NCBI GenBank assembly: GCA_020348925.1
Contig: CP070758.1
Span: forward strand, 3,611,688 to 3,675,687
Length of the DNA: 64,000 bases
Source of the DNA: Gemmatimonadota bacterium
GTDB taxonomy: Bacteria; JBHIER01; G020348925
Direction: 5' to 3'
Of this stretch, positions 8,644 through 12,675 are shown in pieces. The notes below the pieces were generated by a model. The model was not told where the DNA came from. It searched no databases and saw only the letters and a program-made list of their open reading frames with translations. Within the stretch, counting starts at the first letter, position 1. Every line of letters begins with the position of its first letter. A program made the translations under genes and the position numbers.

Positions 8644-9528
8644 ATGAAAATCTTAAAACAGTCATGCGTCGCCGTGGCCATAATTGTTCTGGCCTCAGGT
8701 CTGCTTCTGGCTGATACCATCGAAGAACGGTTCGAGAAAACAGTGCCATTGGAATACGGTGGATACTTCGCCCTGGCAAACAAGAACGGGAGTATCGAAA
8801 TCTCATCGTGGGATCGGGAGGAGGTTCGTATCGAGGCCCTGAAAAAGGTGAAAAGCTCCAGTCGTCGAGTGGCACGAGAAGCCATGGAGGAACTCCGTAT
8901 CGAAATTGATACGCGCGGAAGCGATGAGGTCATCGTCGAAACGGACTATCCGTACGAGCACGGGGGCGAAAGCCTCGGGGGTGCGCTCAGCGCCATTTTC
9001 GGCGGTCAAAAGAAACCCCAGATTTCCGTAACCTACAGGATCACCGTCCCCGAACGGGTCGACTTGAAAATCGGAACGACGAACGGGAGTATTGAAGTCG
9101 AGGACATTGAGGGTGAAGCTCAAGTGAGCAGCACCAATGGAAAAGTTGAAATGGCTTATATGAAAGGGTTTCTTGACGTTTCAACGACCAACGGGAGAAT
9201 CGAATTGATCGACATAGATGGCGGTCTCGATGCGGGCACGACAAACGGAAGTGTCGAGGTGCGATATTCTTCCCGCGCTGACATCACTGAGGATATCTCC
9301 ATTCGTACCACAAACGGCGGCATCGAGCTCAGACTGCCTGAAGACATAGACGCCGATGTCAACGCCAGGACGACCAACGGTCACATCGATACCGATTTCC
9401 CAATCACTGTCCGCGGGCGATACGGCAAGAAACATCTCTCCGGACAGATCAACGACGGCGGTCCGCTCATCGAGCTGAAAACCACAAACGGAAGCATCAA
9501 CATCCGCAGCAGCAGGGTTCGCATTTAA
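8644..9528 (+). CDS. DUF4097 / putative adhesin beta-strand repeat protein, secreted
   Basis: Signal peptide; repeated TTNG.I motifs. Confidence 0.85.
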   Translation: MKILKQSCVAVAIIVLASGLLLADTIEERFEKTVPLEYGGYFALANKNGSIEISSWDREEVRIEALKKVKSSSRRVAREAMEELRIEIDTRGSDEVIVETDYPYEHGGESLGGALSAIFGGQKKPQISVTYRITVPERVDLKIGTTNGSIEVEDIEGEAQVSSTNGKVEMAYMKGFLDVSTTNGRIELIDIDGGLDAGTTNGSVEVRYSSRADITEDISIRTTNGGIELRLPEDIDADVNARTTNGHIDTDFPITVRGRYGKKHLSGQINDGGPLIELKTTNGSINIRSSRVRI

Positions 9529-9707
9529 GCTCTTCCAAACCTTGCAAAAACTTCGTACTCGTTCGTTCAGGAGATGTCTCTTGAACGAAAAATAGCAGAG
9601 GACTTAAGTCCCTTTCCGTTCATCCCTAATGGGGATATCTCTCTGACGATCTTCAATCCCTCTAACTTCTCCATCGTCTATACTCGGAGGGAATCTCACC
9701 CTTACCC

Positions 9708-9751
9708 AAACAAAAGAAAACCTCCCAGAGGTTCAATATCTCCGGGAGGTT
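9708..9751 (-). terminator. Minus-strand intrinsic terminator, probably the original terminator of the 11525-12430 gene
   Basis: Minus strand reads AACCTCCCGGAG-loop-CTCTGGGAGGTT-TTCTTTTGTTT. Confidence 0.7.
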
Positions 9752-9801
9752 GTATCACTTGAATCCTTGGACCCTTGAATCCTATGTATTACTTCATGTT
9801 C

Positions 9802-9822
9802 GTATCATTTGACCCCATGAGG
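9802..9822 (+). repeat. Left inverted repeat of the DUF1670 element
   Basis: 19/21 match to the reverse complement of 11505-11525. Confidence 0.85.
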
Positions 9823-9837
9823 ATTGTGGTTTATATT
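9809..9837 (+). promoter_or_regulatory. Sigma70-type promoter for the DUF1670 pair, with the -35 inside the left IR
   Basis: TTGACC (9809-14), 17 bp spacer, TATATT (9832-37); RBS GGAGG 9865-69; ATG 9875. Confidence 0.6.
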
Positions 9838-9874
9838 CGCATTTAACATTGCATTTTTTCTCATGGAGGTTCAT

Positions 9875-10690
9875 ATGATAGTCCAATCTAAAGATCCTTA
9901 TGGTTCTATCCGGTTGAAATCCAAGAACGTTAAGAATGCCATCGTTCAGAAGATCTCCCAGGACTTCAACCTGACACCTATTATTGCCGAAGCGTACTTT
10001 CGACAAATCTCTGCCTACTTCAACGAGCACCTCAACATCAAACTTTCATCAGGCCAGATCGCCTATGAAGCTATTGCCGCCGAGGAGCCACCCAGCAAAC
10101 ACATCGCCCTGGCCAGAAAAATCACCACCACGCTGACCCTCAATGACTTCAATTCCGATCTACAGATTCTGGCTGACCAGGGCCTGGCAGGTTTGAGGCG
10201 ACATCGCATCCTCAGACTCACCAGAGAAGCTCATGACCAGAGTGCCGTCCTCTCCTATGAAGACTTGGCTGTCCTATTAACCACCAGCCCGGCCACCGTC
10301 AAACGCGATATCCGGGCACTGCGACAAAGGGGCTTGTTCATCGTGACCAGAGGATGGAAACACGACATGGGACCCGGCATCTCCCACAAAACTCAGATCA
10401 TCGACCTCTACCTCAAAGGATACCAGTTCACACAGATCGAGCAGAAAACCAATCACTCCGAAACCGCCGTGCTCAAATACCTCAAGCACTTTACCCAGAC
10501 TGTCCAACTCCACACCCAGAACTTCTCACCAGGACAGATCCGAACCGTCACAGGCTTCTCTGACAAACTCATCGGCGAATACATCGAACTGTACAAACAG
10601 TATCAGCATCTTGACAACCAACGGTTGAAGCTGTTACTAAACCCCGAACCCAGGGAAAAAAAAGGAAACACCGATGAAAAAACTCTCTAA
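9875..10690 (+). CDS. DUF1670-like protein A
   Basis: RLTREAHDQ..LSYEDLAVLL, TRG..HDMGPGISHK.QII.LYLKG and HS..AV.KY, the pattern I recall for DUF1670; RBS GGAGG before ATG 9875. Confidence 0.75.
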   Translation: MIVQSKDPYGSIRLKSKNVKNAIVQKISQDFNLTPIIAEAYFRQISAYFNEHLNIKLSSGQIAYEAIAAEEPPSKHIALARKITTTLTLNDFNSDLQILADQGLAGLRRHRILRLTREAHDQSAVLSYEDLAVLLTTSPATVKRDIRALRQRGLFIVTRGWKHDMGPGISHKTQIIDLYLKGYQFTQIEQKTNHSETAVLKYLKHFTQTVQLHTQNFSPGQIRTVTGFSDKLIGEYIELYKQYQHLDNQRLKLLLNPEPREKKGNTDEKTL

Positions 10691-11477
10691 ACAGGACACC
10701 TGTCTCAAGAAGTTCCGACGCATCAACGACAAATCTCTTAAACAGCTTCTTCTCTATCGGTTCCTCAACCACTACGGCTACGATAAGGGAGAAATCAGCG
10801 CCAGAGCCATTGTCGATGATATCATTAAACTCATCGAACGCTACTTCATCCTGGCCAATCCTCAACCCGAAGGCCTCTACATCAACTACGGTCATCTGGT
10901 CTGGATGGCTGTTGATGTCGAAGCGCGGCACAAACGAGGCCAGAGAATGCTCAACACAAAGCTCAAACCCGTGCTGTTGACCTTTCTGGCTGACGAGGAC
11001 ATCGAGTCCCTCAAAGAAGGCTTCTCATCTCGTCAGCTCCGAATCCGACGGATGGTCAGATGGTGTGAACAAGCCTATGACCAGGGAGCATTACTCTCTC
11101 AACTGGACCTGGCTGTTCTACTCAACGTCTGCGATGCGGCAGTCACCGACTATGTCAATGAATATCAAAGAACAACGGGGCGAATCCTTCCCACCAGGGG
11201 AAACATCCATGACCTCTCCGGCGCCATCACTCACAAACGGGAGATCATTGCCCTCTATCTACAGGGCTATCTCACCCCGACTATTGCCAGAAAAACCAAC
11301 CATTCCAAAGAGGCTGTCGATCGATACATCAAGGACTTTGAAGCAGTCCAAACACTCTATCAACATGGCATCTATGACCTTGATCGTATCGTCCAACTGG
11401 CCAGACTCAGTAAAAAAGTGGTTCAACAATACCTCGATCTAATACCCAGGGAGAAAAACCTTGAAAAATCAACTTGA
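10674..11477 (+). CDS. DUF1670-like protein B, paralog of A, overlapping its 3' end
   Basis: RWCEQAYDQGALLSQLDLAVLL, PTRGNIHDLSGAITHKREIIALYLQG and HSKEAVDRY. Confidence 0.75.
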   Translation: MKKLSKQDTCLKKFRRINDKSLKQLLLYRFLNHYGYDKGEISARAIVDDIIKLIERYFILANPQPEGLYINYGHLVWMAVDVEARHKRGQRMLNTKLKPVLLTFLADEDIESLKEGFSSRQLRIRRMVRWCEQAYDQGALLSQLDLAVLLNVCDAAVTDYVNEYQRTTGRILPTRGNIHDLSGAITHKREIIALYLQGYLTPTIARKTNHSKEAVDRYIKDFEAVQTLYQHGIYDLDRIVQLARLSKKVVQQYLDLIPREKNLEKST

Positions 11478-11504
11478 CATCACTATATTTTTTCATGATT
11501 TATC

Positions 11505-11525
11505 CCTCCTGGGGTCATATGATAC
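11505..11525 (-). repeat. Right inverted repeat of the DUF1670 element
   Basis: CCTCCTGGGGTCATATGATAC, complementary to the left IR. Confidence 0.85.
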
Positions 11526-12430
11526 TATTTCATCAACACCATCCGTTTCGTGGCCGTGAAATCATTCGCCTCAATTCGGTAAAAGTAGACCCCACTGGCC
11601 ATATCGGACGCATTCCAATCGACCTTGAGATAGCAGGCCTCCTGTCTCCTGTCCACCAGCACCTCCACCACCTGCCCCAGCAGGTTGTAAACCGATACCT
11701 TCACCTTCGCCGCCTCCGGCAAGGCATATTCGATACGCGTCACAGGATTGAAGGGGTTCGGATAGTTCTGGGCCAGACTGTACGCCGCCGGCGCAAAGTC
11801 ACTGGCTTTCACAGTAAACATTGAACCATGCCCGAAACCGATCCCCTCATCAGCGGTGAAGACAATCGGCTCCACAACATCAATACTCACCTCGTCCACA
11901 TCATGTACCACGGTGAACGGAACACGCACCACCGAACCGGCTCCGGCCTCTATAGATTCTCCCCTCATGCTCGACAGGAAGACCACCAGCTCTTCGCCGA
12001 CAATCCTGGAATGAACCTCCATCCCCTGAGACCGCTGCGTCAGATCAGGGTTGCCCGGTATCACCATATCCTGATCGTACCGAAACCGCAGCACCATACC
12101 GGCCACATCCACCTCGGAAGCCACACTCACCGGCACGACCACAGTCCTGCCACCCACACCCATCACATCACCCATCTGTACATCGGTCACCGTCACCTTG
12201 GGATCGCACACACCCACGGCCCGGTTGATACACTTCATCAAATCGATGACGTTCACCAGGCCGTCGCCGTTGGCATCGGCCGCCCAGATCAATGTCTTCG
12301 GGTCGAAAACATCTTCCAGCGAACCCAGGCTCTTCTCGCCAACTATATGGTACAGCATCTCAAACAGATCCATCAACGTCACCGTCGTATCCGGCACCCC
12401 GGACGAACCCGTCACATCACACTTGGCCGG
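11525..12430 (-). CDS. Secreted protein C-terminus with dockerin-like, cohesin-like and FlgD-Ig/T9SS-like sorting domains; partial at gap
   Basis: ADANGDGLVNVIDL; VVVPVSV..FRYD cohesin-like pattern; LAQNYPNPFNP...GVYFYRI...KRMVLMK. Confidence 0.8.
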   Translation of the reverse strand, partial: PAKCDVTGSSGVPDTTVTLMDLFEMLYHIVGEKSLGSLEDVFDPKTLIWAADANGDGLVNVIDLMKCINRAVGVCDPKVTVTDVQMGDVMGVGGRTVVVPVSVASEVDVAGMVLRFRYDQDMVIPGNPDLTQRSQGMEVHSRIVGEELVVFLSSMRGESIEAGAGSVVRVPFTVVHDVDEVSIDVVEPIVFTADEGIGFGHGSMFTVKASDFAPAAYSLAQNYPNPFNPVTRIEYALPEAAKVKVSVYNLLGQVVEVLVDRRQEACYLKVDWNASDMASGVYFYRIEANDFTATKRMVLMK

Positions 12431-12530
12431 NNNNNNNNNNNNNNNNNNNNNNNNNNNNNNNNNNNNNNNNNNNNNNNNNNNNNNNNNNNNNNNNNNNNNN
12501 NNNNNNNNNNNNNNNNNNNNNNNNNNNNNN

Positions 12531-12675
12531 AGTGGAGGTCTTGGTCGATTCGGATCTTGAAGCCGGGTACTACAGCGTTTCTTGGGACGCCTCCGGAGTG
12601 ACCACAGGCGTGTATTTCTTCCGTATCGTGGCATCGAACTATACGGAGACAAGGCGCATGGTTTTCATGAAGTAG
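12531..12675 (+). CDS. C-terminal fragment of a sorting-domain protein; partial at gap
   Basis: VLVD...AGYYSVSWDAS...GVYFFRI...RRMVFMK. Confidence 0.75.

What the first reader, a model, noticed from the sequence alone, without database searches (positions are those of the whole stretch)
10340..11345. DUF1670 C-termini resemble tyrosine-recombinase box II, suggesting a possible heterodimeric recombinase
Seen: A has SHKTQIIDLYLKG-x11-HSETAVLKY and B has THKREIIALYLQG-x11-HSKEAVDRY; both are preceded by TRG..HD. Established: XerD box II is RHAFATHLLNHG-x11-HSDLSTTQIY, ending in the catalytic Tyr. The H..G-x11-H..Y spacing is within one residue, and paired recombinases acting on two slightly different arms is the XerC/XerD logic. 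Caveat: HxxR is not conserved, and the same segment also fits an ordinary helix-turn-helix, so it may only bind DNA.
Basis: inference. Interest (0 to 1): 0.72.

Follow-up and report, generated by a model that had tools for sequence, protein, structure and literature searches.

The report
DUF1670 helix-turn-helix pair of jumping element
The recombinase-like motif is a DNA-binding helix-turn-helix in two sister proteins that are the only genes of an undescribed jumping element sitting exactly in the last codon of a secreted-protein gene.

Summary

- **Proteins.** A (9875-10690) and B (10674-11477) are DUF1670 paralogues.
- **Fold.** AlphaFold models (pLDDT 87 and 81) put TRG in the wing of a winged helix. 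H..G-x11-H..Y falls in a sigma-region-4/LuxR/resolvase-type helix-turn-helix.
- **No recombinase signal.** There is no PF00589 hit. hhalign against the genome's own two Xer-like proteins gives 2.1% and 0.4% probability.
- **Mobile element.** The two genes are the whole cargo of a roughly 1.74-kb element (about 9795-11528) with inverted ends built on TCA-NN-TGA.
- **Evidence for mobility.** Another genome holds 3 + 4 copies with sharp edges. One metagenome holds the element at five-fold higher depth than its flanks. The window's own genome holds an empty-site paralogue.
- **Target.** The element sits in the last codon of a type IX secretion cargo gene and supplies a new A+TAG. The same target was seen for 40 of 42 tested relatives.
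- **Open point.** No known DNA-cutting domain was found, so the chemistry is unassigned.

This scan had noted the element family on other DNA. I found no paper on it.

The parts
9795..11528 (+). DUF1670 two-gene insertion element (edges good to about 3 nt; flanked by TT at 9793-9794 and 11529-11530)
   Evidence: A metagenome contig of 1740 nt equals window 9791-11530 with 0 differences, at depth 81 against 5-17 for flank contigs. Homology to L003 starts at 9798. The T9SS paralogues of the own genome start matching at 11523-11526. An empty-site paralogue joins 9797 to about 11523.
9789..9794 (-). Displaced original end of the target gene: Lys AAG (9792-9794) and stop TAA (9789-9791), read on the minus strand
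   Evidence: The empty-site paralogue L057 reads ...ATTACTTCATCAACACC.... In the same register a stop codon is present in 46 of 50 related loci (TAA 23, TAG 12, TGA 11), preceded by Lys or Arg in 43 of 50.
9803..9823 (+). Left inverted repeat, TATCA-TT-TGACCCCATGAGGA (palindromic core TCA-NN-TGA at 9805-9812)
   Evidence: Matches the reverse complement of 11504-11524 (read). The consensus of 60 left ends is GTTtnnnTCAtaTGACCnnagGAg.
9875..10690 (+). Gene A, DUF1670, 271 aa
   Evidence: PF07900 E 1.5e-57. 1144 homologous clusters. AF2 pLDDT 87.3.
10163..10369 (+). A residues 97-165: winged helix; TRG (158-160) lies in its wing
   Evidence: VIA-align: NiaR Z 6.6, rmsd 1.8, 56 aa; also BirA and LexA. 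A profile hit to a GntR-type wing reads ...TVRGTG.
10379..10525 (+). A residues 169-217: three-helix HTH holding the 'box II-like' string (H171, H194, Y202)
   Evidence: VIA-align: DesR LuxR-type HTH Z 5.5, rmsd 1.7, 49 aa, model 169-217; SigA region 4. Pfam HTH_28/HTH_40 weak.
10656..10663 (+). Run of 8 A where both the A frame and the B frame are open (B is in the +1 frame)
   Evidence: An A run of at least 6 stands in this overlap in 71 of 81 pairs. Elsewhere in the genes there are 21 runs of at least 7 in 111 kb.
10674..11477 (+). Gene B, DUF1670, 267 aa; overlaps A by 17 nt
   Evidence: PF07900 E 2.9e-62. 33% identical to A, E 2e-24. AF2 pLDDT 80.7.
11025..11213 (+). B residues 118-180: winged helix, TRG at 174-176
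   Evidence: VIA-align: NiaR Z 6.4, rmsd 1.8, 57 aa; topoisomerase VI-A CAP domain Z 6.2.
11223..11387 (+). B residues 184-238: sigma-region-4 / LuxR / resolvase-type HTH with H187, H210, Y218
   Evidence: VIA-align: DesR Z 6.1, rmsd 1.9, 49 aa; sigma-28, SigE region 4 on DNA; Tn3 resolvase HTH Z 5.3. Pfam HTH_29 E 8e-5.
11504..11528 (+). Right inverted repeat CCCTCCTGGGGTCA-TA-TGATA followed by CTAT. CTA (11525-11527) is the TAG stop now used by the target gene.
   Evidence: The consensus of 75 right ends is cTCcTntgGTCATnTGAtACTAT. TAG in 63 of 64, and third base of the last codon A in 64 of 64.
11525..12652 (-). Target gene: type IX secretion cargo protein ending ...KRMVLMK*, convergent with B (part of it is masked N)
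   Evidence: Por_Secre_tail PF18962 E 2e-11, 44.4 bits, cut-off 27. ORF.

Best explanation
**What the motif is.** The 'box II-like' string is the second helix-turn-helix of a multi-domain DNA-binding protein.
- The domain order is: an N-terminal two-helix plus beta-hairpin part, a winged helix, a sigma-4/LuxR-type HTH, and a last three-helix unit.
- TRG is the wing of the winged helix.
- H171/H187 opens helix 1 of the HTH.
- H194/H210 caps the recognition helix, and Y202/Y218 lies on it.

**What the genes belong to.** A and B are paralogues and the only genes of a roughly 1.74-kb insertion element.

**Inferred working.**
- A and B act together, either as a heterodimer or as an A-B fusion made by slippage on the poly-A run.
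- They bind the TCA-NN-TGA near-palindrome in each inverted end.
- The conserved His-His-Tyr (with Ser and Arg) are most simply the contacts to this equally conserved DNA core.
- The proteins bring the ends to the 3' end of a type IX secretion cargo gene.
- The element is joined inside the last codon, with about 2 bp shared on both sides.
- The right end supplies the third codon base and a TAG stop, so the host protein is unchanged.

**Shown versus inferred.**
- Shown: the fold assignment, the element and its ends, the target, and the codon repair.
- Inferred: that A and B bind the ends, that they work together, and that they carry out or direct the cutting and joining.
- No catalytic centre was identified. 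They are not members of the tyrosine recombinase family.
For: **Fold**
- AF2 models have pLDDT 87.3 and 80.7.
- In A, residues 97-165 match winged helices and 169-247 match HTHs. In B the ranges are 118-180 and 184-238.
- Pfam gives only DUF1670 plus weak HTH families.

**Not a tyrosine recombinase**

**Mobile element**
- Genome G041 has 14 DUF1670 genes in 7 pairs, as 3 copies sharing a 1855-bp unit (98% identical) and 4 copies sharing 1763-1834 bp (about 99% identical), with sharp edges.
- Run X1 has a 1740-nt contig equal to 9791-11530, at depth 81 against 5-17 for the flanks.
- Many homologues lie on contigs of about 1.8-2.1 kb.
- The own genome has an empty-site paralogue, one left-end fragment and one right-end fragment.
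- Hosts span Zixibacteria, Eisenbacteria, Fibrobacteraceae and Melioribacteraceae by record titles, at 57-78% identity.

**Pairing**
- An A-type gene stands upstream of B in 85 of 90 loci.
- Single-chain A-then-B forms of 532-546 aa exist, as do three-module forms of 930-952 aa with no other Pfam domain.

**Target**
- The right-end motif was found in 66 of 80 metagenome loci.
- The convergent ORF tail hits Por_Secre_tail, FlgD_ig or CHU_C in 40 of 42 tested, window included.
- At the right junction the stop is TAG in 63 of 64, and the third base of the last codon is A in 64 of 64.
- At the left junction there is a variable stop codon in 46 of 50 loci.

**His-His-Tyr as one functional unit**
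- In 24 multi-module proteins the strong modules keep all three residues.
- The degenerate first modules lose them together, with Tyr replaced by Ile, Leu, Trp or Ala.
Against: - No experiment or complex model links A or B to the inverted repeats.
- Nothing shows that A and B cut DNA. A host or other enzyme acting in trans is not excluded.
- Tyr202 is never Phe or Trp in 123 sequences. That is stricter than expected for a purely structural aromatic residue: Y179 is F, W or L in 29 of 123.
- The first two bases of the last codon agree on both sides in only 34 of 43 loci, so a clean 2-bp duplication is not proven.
- 14 of 80 loci lack the right-end motif under my pattern. At least three of these (L067, L113, L114) have more than 700 nt of sequence downstream of B.
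- Two tested tails (L083, L138) are not T9SS-like.
- Structural Z scores (6.6 or less) are in the range the tool calls common for small helical domains.
- The N-terminal 100 residues were barely tested by the fold searches.
Confidence: 0.62

Rival explanations
1. A and B only bind DNA: they choose the ends and the target, or repress their own genes. The cutting and joining is done by an enzyme encoded elsewhere, such as the host's two Xer-type recombinases or another element's transposase acting in trans. On this reading the element is a passenger cassette.
For: - No catalytic domain was detected in Pfam, NCBIfam, PHROGs, PADLOC, PDB sequences or the fold libraries.
- The own genome does encode two PF00589 proteins.
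Against: - The two-gene layout is kept in 85 of 90 loci across several phyla, as expected if the element depends on its own genes.
- In the own genome the exact end motif occurs only at the element's two ends and at the two end fragments, not at the ends of another element.
- The ends do not look like a dif site; that comparison rests on recalled knowledge.
- No helper gene was seen beside any copy.
Confidence: 0.25
2. R159, H171, H194 and Y202 (and their B equivalents) form a tyrosine-recombinase-like active site, with the Tyr as nucleophile making a covalent phosphotyrosine. A and B would work like XerC and XerD on the two arms of each end.
For: - Tyr is 120 of 123 and never Phe or Trp; the two His are 118 and 117 of 123; Arg is 123 of 123 in single-module proteins.
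- His, His and Tyr are lost together in degenerate modules.
- Insertion is orientation-specific and base-precise, with no consistent long duplication. That is recombinase-like behaviour.
- Each end has two unequal arms.
Against: - No PF00589 signal, and hhalign gives 2.1% and 0.4%.
- Ser or Thr stands at the aligned Arg-II position in 123 of 123 sequences.
- The 'HD' His is conserved in only 41 of 123.
- R159 is Lys, Thr, Ala or Val in the B-type modules of fused proteins.
- The segment models as a compact HTH of about 50 residues, not as part of a catalytic domain of about 170 residues.
- The Tyr sits on the hydrophobic stripe V199-Y202-L203-F206, and in degenerate modules it becomes Ile, Leu or Trp.
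- The bare spacing motif is near chance level.
Confidence: 0.08
3. The pair is an ordinary chromosomal pair of transcription regulators of the neighbouring secretion cargo gene, and is not mobile.
For: - HTH domains only.
- Always next to T9SS cargo genes.
- One full copy in this genome.
Against: - Near-identical multi-copy units with sharp edges.
- Five-fold depth excess of exactly the unit.
- An empty-site paralogue.
- Inverted terminal repeats.
- The same element next to different cargo genes in several phyla.
Confidence: 0.03

Closest known systems
Tyrosine recombinases XerC/XerD (Pfam PF00589 Phage_integrase)
   Same: Two paralogues; site- and orientation-specific joining; DNA sites with two unequal arms; conserved Arg, His, His and Tyr letters with roughly similar spacing.
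   Different: - No sequence or profile similarity.
- The fold of the segment is an HTH.
- Arg II is absent.
- His-to-Tyr distance is 8, not 9.
- The arms are 6-7 bp apart by 2 bp, not 11 bp around a 6-8 bp spacer. The Xer figures are recalled, not tested.
IS630 / Tc1-mariner elements
   Same: Short inverted ends; bipartite HTH DNA-binding region (weak Foldseek hit of B to the Tc3 bipartite domain 1u78, prob 0.84, E 0.57); about 2 bp shared at both junctions.
   Different: No DDE/D catalytic domain. Two genes instead of one. The target is a gene's last codon, not any TA (the IS630 properties are recalled).
IS1 and IS3 families (two overlapping ORFs fused by slippage on an A run)
   Same: Upstream HTH ORF overlapping a second ORF in another frame, with a conserved poly-A run in the overlap. 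Natural fused forms exist.
   Different: The second ORF is a paralogue of the first, not a DDE transposase. Fusion by slippage is not shown here. The IS1/IS3 mechanism is recalled.
Tn7 insertion at attTn7 through TnsD
   Same: Orientation-specific insertion at the 3' end of a conserved gene that leaves the host protein intact.
   Different: No TnsA/B/C-like genes. The target is a whole family of genes (T9SS sorting-domain tails), with about 40 such 3' ends in this genome. The insertion is inside the last codon, with the stop codon replaced (Tn7 properties are recalled).
Small serine recombinases (Tn3 / gamma-delta resolvase)
   Same: The HTH of B superposes on the Tn3 resolvase HTH (Z 5.3, rmsd 2.8, 43 aa) and the Sin HTH (Z 5.2). 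The sites are palindromic around a central dinucleotide, and about 2 bp are shared at the junctions.
   Different: No N-terminal serine catalytic domain was detected.

Membership tests
Tyrosine recombinase (PF00589) | Sequence or profile match to the catalytic domain | tested here: not met
   No PF00589 among all families at E <= 1 for A or B. hhalign of the 123-row profiles against the genome's own XerD-like and XerC-like proteins gives probability 2.1% and 0.4%, and the aligned stretches are not box II.
Tyrosine recombinase (PF00589) | Catalytic-domain fold | tested here: inconclusive
   No recombinase among the Foldseek PDB hits (none at E <= 1e-3) or the 50 best VIA-align rows for A and B. 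The segment itself superposes on sigma-4/LuxR HTHs. The tool warns that a family not listed is not excluded.
Tyrosine recombinase (PF00589) | Box II His-x-x-Arg (Arg II) | tested here: not met
That column is Ser 105 and Thr 18 of 123 in A6, and Thr 65 and Ser 58 of 123 in A7, never Arg.
Tyrosine recombinase (PF00589) | Conserved His/Trp III and nucleophilic Tyr | tested here: inconclusive
   The letters are conserved (H194 117 of 123, Y202 120 of 123). But the spacing is 8 against 9 in the own XerD-like protein, and the residues lie on an HTH recognition helix.
Tyrosine recombinase (PF00589) | Covalent 3'-phosphotyrosine intermediate | not testable with these tools
   Needs biochemistry.
DUF1670 (PF07900) | Pfam model above the gathering score | tested here: met
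   A scores 194.9 bits and B 210.3 bits; the cut-off is 25.
Insertion sequence (general) | Discrete unit repeated within genomes | tested here: met
   G041 has 3 + 4 near-identical copies. The X1 contig has 5-fold depth. This genome has one full copy plus two end fragments.
Insertion sequence (general) | Terminal inverted repeats | tested here: met
   52 loci show a mean of 70% identity of the left end to the reverse complement of the right end over 25 nt. The core TCA-NN-TGACC is at least 90% conserved.
Insertion sequence (general) | Target-site duplication | tested here: inconclusive
   The first two bases of the last codon are the same on both sides in 34 of 43 loci; the whole codon in 25 of 43.
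Insertion sequence (general) | Recognisable transposase (DDE, DEDD, HUH, Ser or Tyr) | tested here: not met
   None found in Pfam, NCBIfam, PHROGs or PDB sequences. Other ORFs inside the element have no Pfam hit.
Sigma-70 region 4 / LuxR-type HTH (fold level only) | Three-helix HTH superposition | tested here: met
   A 169-217 on DesR: Z 5.5, rmsd 1.7, 49 aa. B 185-233 on DesR: Z 6.1, rmsd 1.9, 49 aa. Many sigma region 4 chains score Z 5.1-5.9. Z values are modest.

The most novel reading that the evidence does not exclude
DUF1670 proteins are a new class of transposase or site-specific recombinase with no known catalytic fold. The co-conserved His-His-Tyr triad on the second helix-turn-helix would be the active site, with Tyr as nucleophile and the two His as acid/base or metal ligands. 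An A-B heterodimer (or slippage fusion) on each near-palindromic end would make a 2-bp staggered exchange inside the last codon of type IX secretion cargo genes.
Probability: 0.12. Interest if true: 0.95.

Novelty: new variant of a known kind. Interest (0 to 1): 0.74.

Why it matters
- It gives a first biological context to an uncharacterised Pfam family of more than a thousand sequence clusters.
- It describes a mobile element that lands to the base in the last codon of one family of genes and repairs the codon and stop it breaks. That is a natural, orientation-specific, gene-sparing integration system.
- The element carries none of the known DNA-cutting domains. Either a new kind of recombinase is hidden in these helix-turn-helix proteins, or there is a new way of borrowing a host enzyme. 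Both are directly testable with a simple transposition assay.
- It also warns that short 'catalytic' letter patterns can arise inside helix-turn-helix motifs.

Tried and rejected
- **Complex prediction of A with B** (alignments A3 and A4): no verdict, score 0.19 and 0.16 against a mark of 0.32. The controls were not run. This says nothing either way.
- **Foldseek against PDB** for A and B, and **against BFVD** for A: no match at E <= 1e-3.
- **VIA-align wide:** no tyrosine recombinase, DDE, HUH or serine catalytic domain among the 50 rows shown for either model. The N-terminal 100 residues were barely tested.
- **Profile against PDB sequences:** only winged-helix or HTH hits at E >= 0.056.
- **ESM Atlas** with A residues 1-100: no usable hit and no model held.
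- **Rfam** over 9400-11800 at E <= 1: three chance-level rows, far below gathering scores.
- **PHROGs and PADLOC:** only weak HTH-type rows.
- **Literature:** 'DUF1670' and 'PF07900' gave 0 papers each. 'insertion sequence' + 'type IX secretion' + 'stop codon' + 'target site' gave 0 papers. 'insertion sequence' / 'T9SS' / 'last codon' (2 of 3 terms) gave 44 papers, of which I saw the listing of 10, and none held 'last codon'. I read no paper.
- **Joint in run X1** that skips 9734 to 11529: it has only 23 nt on one side and lies at a different left position, so it probably comes from a paralogous empty site. It is not used as evidence.
- **Inverted and direct repeats inside the genes** (I1 and D1-D13) look like chance, apart from D8.
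- **First pattern for the right end** found nothing because of my own register error. It was corrected.
- **First left-junction register** (second half) was wrong. It was redone.
Full report
**1. The observation**

Window 9875-10690 (+) encodes A (271 aa) and 10674-11477 (+) encodes B (267 aa).
- Both are DUF1670, PF07900, with E 1.5e-57 and 2.9e-62. The only other Pfam rows are weak HTH families.
- They are 33% identical over about 200 residues, E 2e-24.
TRGWKHD / TRGNIHD come first, then [ST]HK...G, 11 residues, and H-x7-Y.
- In 123-row alignments reaching about 25% identity (A6 and A7, which share 75 rows), the counts are R159 123 of 123, H171 118, H194 117 and Y202 120 (2 Cys, 1 Pro).
- The His of 'HD' is conserved in only 41 of 123.
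- So the letters are real and conserved.

The bare spacing pattern is not rare. It hits 19 of 6634 crude ORFs of this genome, against 6, 11 and 9 in shuffles.

**2. Is it box II of a tyrosine recombinase?**

No evidence says so, and several tests say no.
- PF00589 does not appear even at E <= 1.
- The genome has two PF00589 genes, XerD-like (296 aa) and XerC-like (323 aa).
- hhalign of the DUF1670 profiles against them gives probabilities of 2.1% and 0.4%. The best local alignments lie elsewhere than box II.
- In the own XerD-like protein the His-to-Tyr distance is 9; in A and B it is 8.

The AlphaFold models have pLDDT 87.3 for A and 80.7 for B.
- They show two helices, a beta-hairpin, a long helix, a winged helix (A 97-165, B 118-180), a three-helix HTH (A 169-217, B 184-238), and further helices.
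- VIA-align places the first unit on NiaR, BirA, LexA and other winged helices (Z up to 6.6).
- It places the second on the DesR LuxR-type HTH (A: Z 5.5, rmsd 1.7, 49 aa; B: Z 6.1, rmsd 1.9, 49 aa). It also matches many sigma region 4 chains and the Tn3 resolvase HTH.
- These Z values are modest, and the tool notes such values are common.
- A profile search of PDB sequences aligns '...PTRG' with the wing of a GntR-type winged helix.
- Foldseek found nothing at E <= 1e-3 in PDB or BFVD.

This gives the following assignments:
- TRG is the wing.
- H171 is the start of HTH helix 1.
- H194 is the cap of the recognition helix.
- Y202 lies on that helix, in the stripe V199-Y202-L203-F206.

I could not measure whether R/H/H/Y cluster in space, because no coordinates are returned.

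**3. What the pair is**

Many homologues lie on contigs of about 1.8-2.1 kb. That is typical of collapsed repeats.

*Multiple copies in another genome.* A Melioribacteraceae genome (G041) has 14 DUF1670 genes in 7 pairs.
- Three copies share a 1855-bp unit at 98% identity.
- Four copies share 1763-1834 bp at about 99%.
- The edges are sharp.
- Five short right-end fragments are also present.

*Hosts.* By record titles the hosts include Zixibacteria, Eisenbacteria, Fibrobacteraceae and Melioribacteraceae, at 57-78% protein identity.

*In the window.* The unit is about 9795-11528.
- Homology to L003 starts at 9798.
- About 40 paralogous cargo-gene 3' ends of this genome start matching at 11523-11526, which is the stop codon.
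- In sediment run X1, a contig of 1740 nt equals 9791-11530 without a difference. Its depth is 81, while flank contigs have 5-17.

*Copies in the own genome.*
- One full copy.
- One left-end fragment of at least 109 bp, 100% identical.
- One right-end fragment of at least 135 bp, 98% identical, next to another cargo gene.
- The inner limits of both fragments run into masked N.

*The ends* are inverted repeats around a near-palindrome.
- Left consensus: GTTtnnnTCAtaTGACCnnagGAg.
- Reverse complement of the right consensus: ATAGTATCAnATGACCAnAGGAG.
- 52 pairs show a mean of 70% identity over 25 nt.

*Other content.*
- Other ORFs inside the element have no Pfam hit.
- An A-type gene precedes B in 85 of 90 loci, not de-duplicated.
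- Single-chain A-then-B proteins (532-546 aa) exist. So do three-module proteins (930-952 aa), which carry nothing but DUF1670 modules.

**4. The target**

Immediately right of the element, on the other strand, is a gene ending ...KRMVLMK*. Its tail is a type IX secretion sorting domain: PF18962, E 2e-11, 44.4 bits against a cut-off of 27.

*Empty site.* A paralogous empty site in this genome (G000:514887-515169) joins the window's left flank directly to such a gene end.
- It reads ...ATG AAG TAA on the gene strand.
- In the window the gene now ends ATG AAA TAG.
- The A and the TAG come from the element's right end (CTAT).
- The old AAG TAA sits at the left junction (9789-9794).

*Relatives.* Of 80 metagenome loci found with the B alignment, out of 366 relatives:
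- 66 have the right-end motif.
- 14 do not. At least L067, L113 and L114 have ample sequence downstream; several others end at the contig edge.
- Of 42 convergent ORF tails of at least 55 codons, window included, 40 hit Por_Secre_tail, FlgD_ig or CHU_C at E <= 0.01. L083 and L138 hit nothing.

*Right junction*.
- The stop is TAG in 63 of 64.
- The third base of the last codon is A in 64 of 64 (AAA 40, CGA 13, AGA 6, TAA 4, CAA 1).
- In the four TAA-TAG cases the element sits in the stop codon itself.

*Left junction*, in a fixed register.
- A stop codon is present in 46 of 50 loci and varies (TAA 23, TAG 12, TGA 11).
- It is preceded by Lys or Arg in 43 of 50.
- The left side therefore keeps the target's own end.

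*Agreement between sides*.
- The last codon is the same on both sides in 25 of 43 loci.
- Its first two bases are the same in 34 of 43.
- This fits a 2-bp overlap or duplication blurred by later exchange of flanks.

*Flank exchange* is seen directly.
- L104 and L105 share the right flank but not the left.
- A contig of run X3 joins the window's element and right flank to the left flank of the own genome's left-end fragment.
- In L106, a short right-end-like motif abuts the left end with TT between, as expected if an element re-inserted at an occupied site. The junction in L097 looks similar but its spacer was not resolved.

**5. How it most likely works**

*Shown:* the fold of the segment, the element, its ends, the target and the codon repair.

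*Inferred:*
- A and B bind the TCA-NN-TGA cores of both ends. The core is conserved in all lineages, which would explain why the HTH residues His, Ser, Arg and Tyr are conserved in both paralogues.
- The two unequal arms of each end may take one paralogue each.
- In 24 multi-module proteins the strong modules keep H171, H194 and Y202. The degenerate first modules lose all three together, with Tyr becoming Ile, Leu, Trp or Ala.
- The triad therefore behaves as one functional unit at a position that tolerates hydrophobic residues.
- R159 is Lys, Thr, Ala or Val in the B-type modules of fused forms.

*Not settled:* whether A and B also cut and join DNA.
- No known catalytic domain was found by any library.
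- No partner enzyme was seen.
- The strict Tyr (never Phe) leaves room for chemistry.
- I put about 0.5 on A and B being sufficient for movement, and about 0.1 on the Tyr being a nucleophile.

**6. A further transposase-like trait**

A and B overlap by 17 nt, and B is in the +1 frame. A run of 8 A (10656-10663) lies where both frames are open.
- Among 81 pairs, a run of at least 6 A lies in this overlap in 71, and of at least 7 A in 57.
- Elsewhere in the genes there are 21 runs of at least 7 A in 111 kb.
- B is in the +1 frame in 51 pairs, where runs are mostly 8-11 A.
- B is in the -1 frame in 30 pairs, where runs are mostly 6-7 A.
- This recalls the slippage fusions of IS1 and IS3 (recalled knowledge). 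It also fits the natural fused forms.
- It could equally be Lys codons plus a ribosome-binding site.

**7. Comparison and novelty**

The pair is a member of DUF1670 and is not a member of the tyrosine recombinases. In behaviour the element resembles several known systems:
- Site-specific elements such as Tn7 at attTn7 (gene-sparing, oriented).
- IS630/Tc1 (bipartite HTH, 2-bp junction).
- IS1/IS3 (two ORFs with an A run).
- Small serine recombinases (HTH, palindromic site with a central dinucleotide).

It lacks the catalytic domain of each.

On prior description:
- I found no paper naming DUF1670 or PF07900, and none on insertion into T9SS gene ends (listings only).
- Earlier notes of this scan, on other genomes, reached the same reading of the element and its target. 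I had derived both before reading them.
- None of those notes had tested the tyrosine-recombinase idea.

**8. Verdict**

- The box II interpretation is not supported as homology or fold.
- The suspicion of a paired recombination machine is circumstantially supported by the mobile-element context.
- The thing itself is an undescribed site-specific insertion element without a recognisable transposase. That is of high interest, and the key step, who cuts the DNA, is still open.

Noticed in passing
window 10656-10663 (and the A/B junction of 81 related pairs): A conserved poly-A run sits where both the A and B reading frames are open. Long runs go with B in the +1 frame and shorter ones with -1. 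This may be programmed slippage giving an A-B fusion, as in IS1/IS3.
   Followed up: partly
own genome G000:4827215-4827323 and G000:2971180-2971314 (L054, L053): A left-end fragment (100% identical to window 9788-9896) and a right-end fragment (98% identical to 11405-11539, beside another T9SS gene ending ..KFVIIK*). Both run into masked N, so their inner limits are unseen.
   Followed up: partly
L106:1525-1580 and L097:30-80: In L106 a short right-end-like motif abuts the left end of a full element with only TT between, as if an element had re-inserted at an already occupied site. L097 shows a similar abutting motif, but its spacer was not resolved. The right end rebuilds the target codon and stop.
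   Followed up: partly
L104 vs L105; run X3 contig over window 9788-11690: The same element and right flank appear with different left flanks. This points to exchange of flanks between copies (homologous recombination or transposition by-products).
   Followed up: partly
L077:2474-3322, L067:2098-2901: B-type gene with 2 kb of upstream sequence but no A-type gene. Possibly truncated or B-only elements.
   Followed up: no
G041 (L027-L031): Five solo right ends of 46-110 bp, each directly after the stop codon of a T9SS cargo gene and without DUF1670 genes nearby.
   Followed up: partly
window 9868-9880: A third copy of the core TCATATGATA overlaps the start codon of A (direct repeat D8 with 11512-11524). 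It could be an autoregulatory binding site. It was not seen at this place in L003 or the Melioribacteraceae copies.
   Followed up: no
own genome, about 40 places: The 3' ends of T9SS cargo genes share 70-80% DNA identity over about 170 nt, starting exactly at the stop codon. This gives the element many potential targets.
   Followed up: no
window 8644-9528: ORF of 294 aa with repeated TTNG(S/R)I-type segments just left of the element. Not analysed.
   Followed up: no
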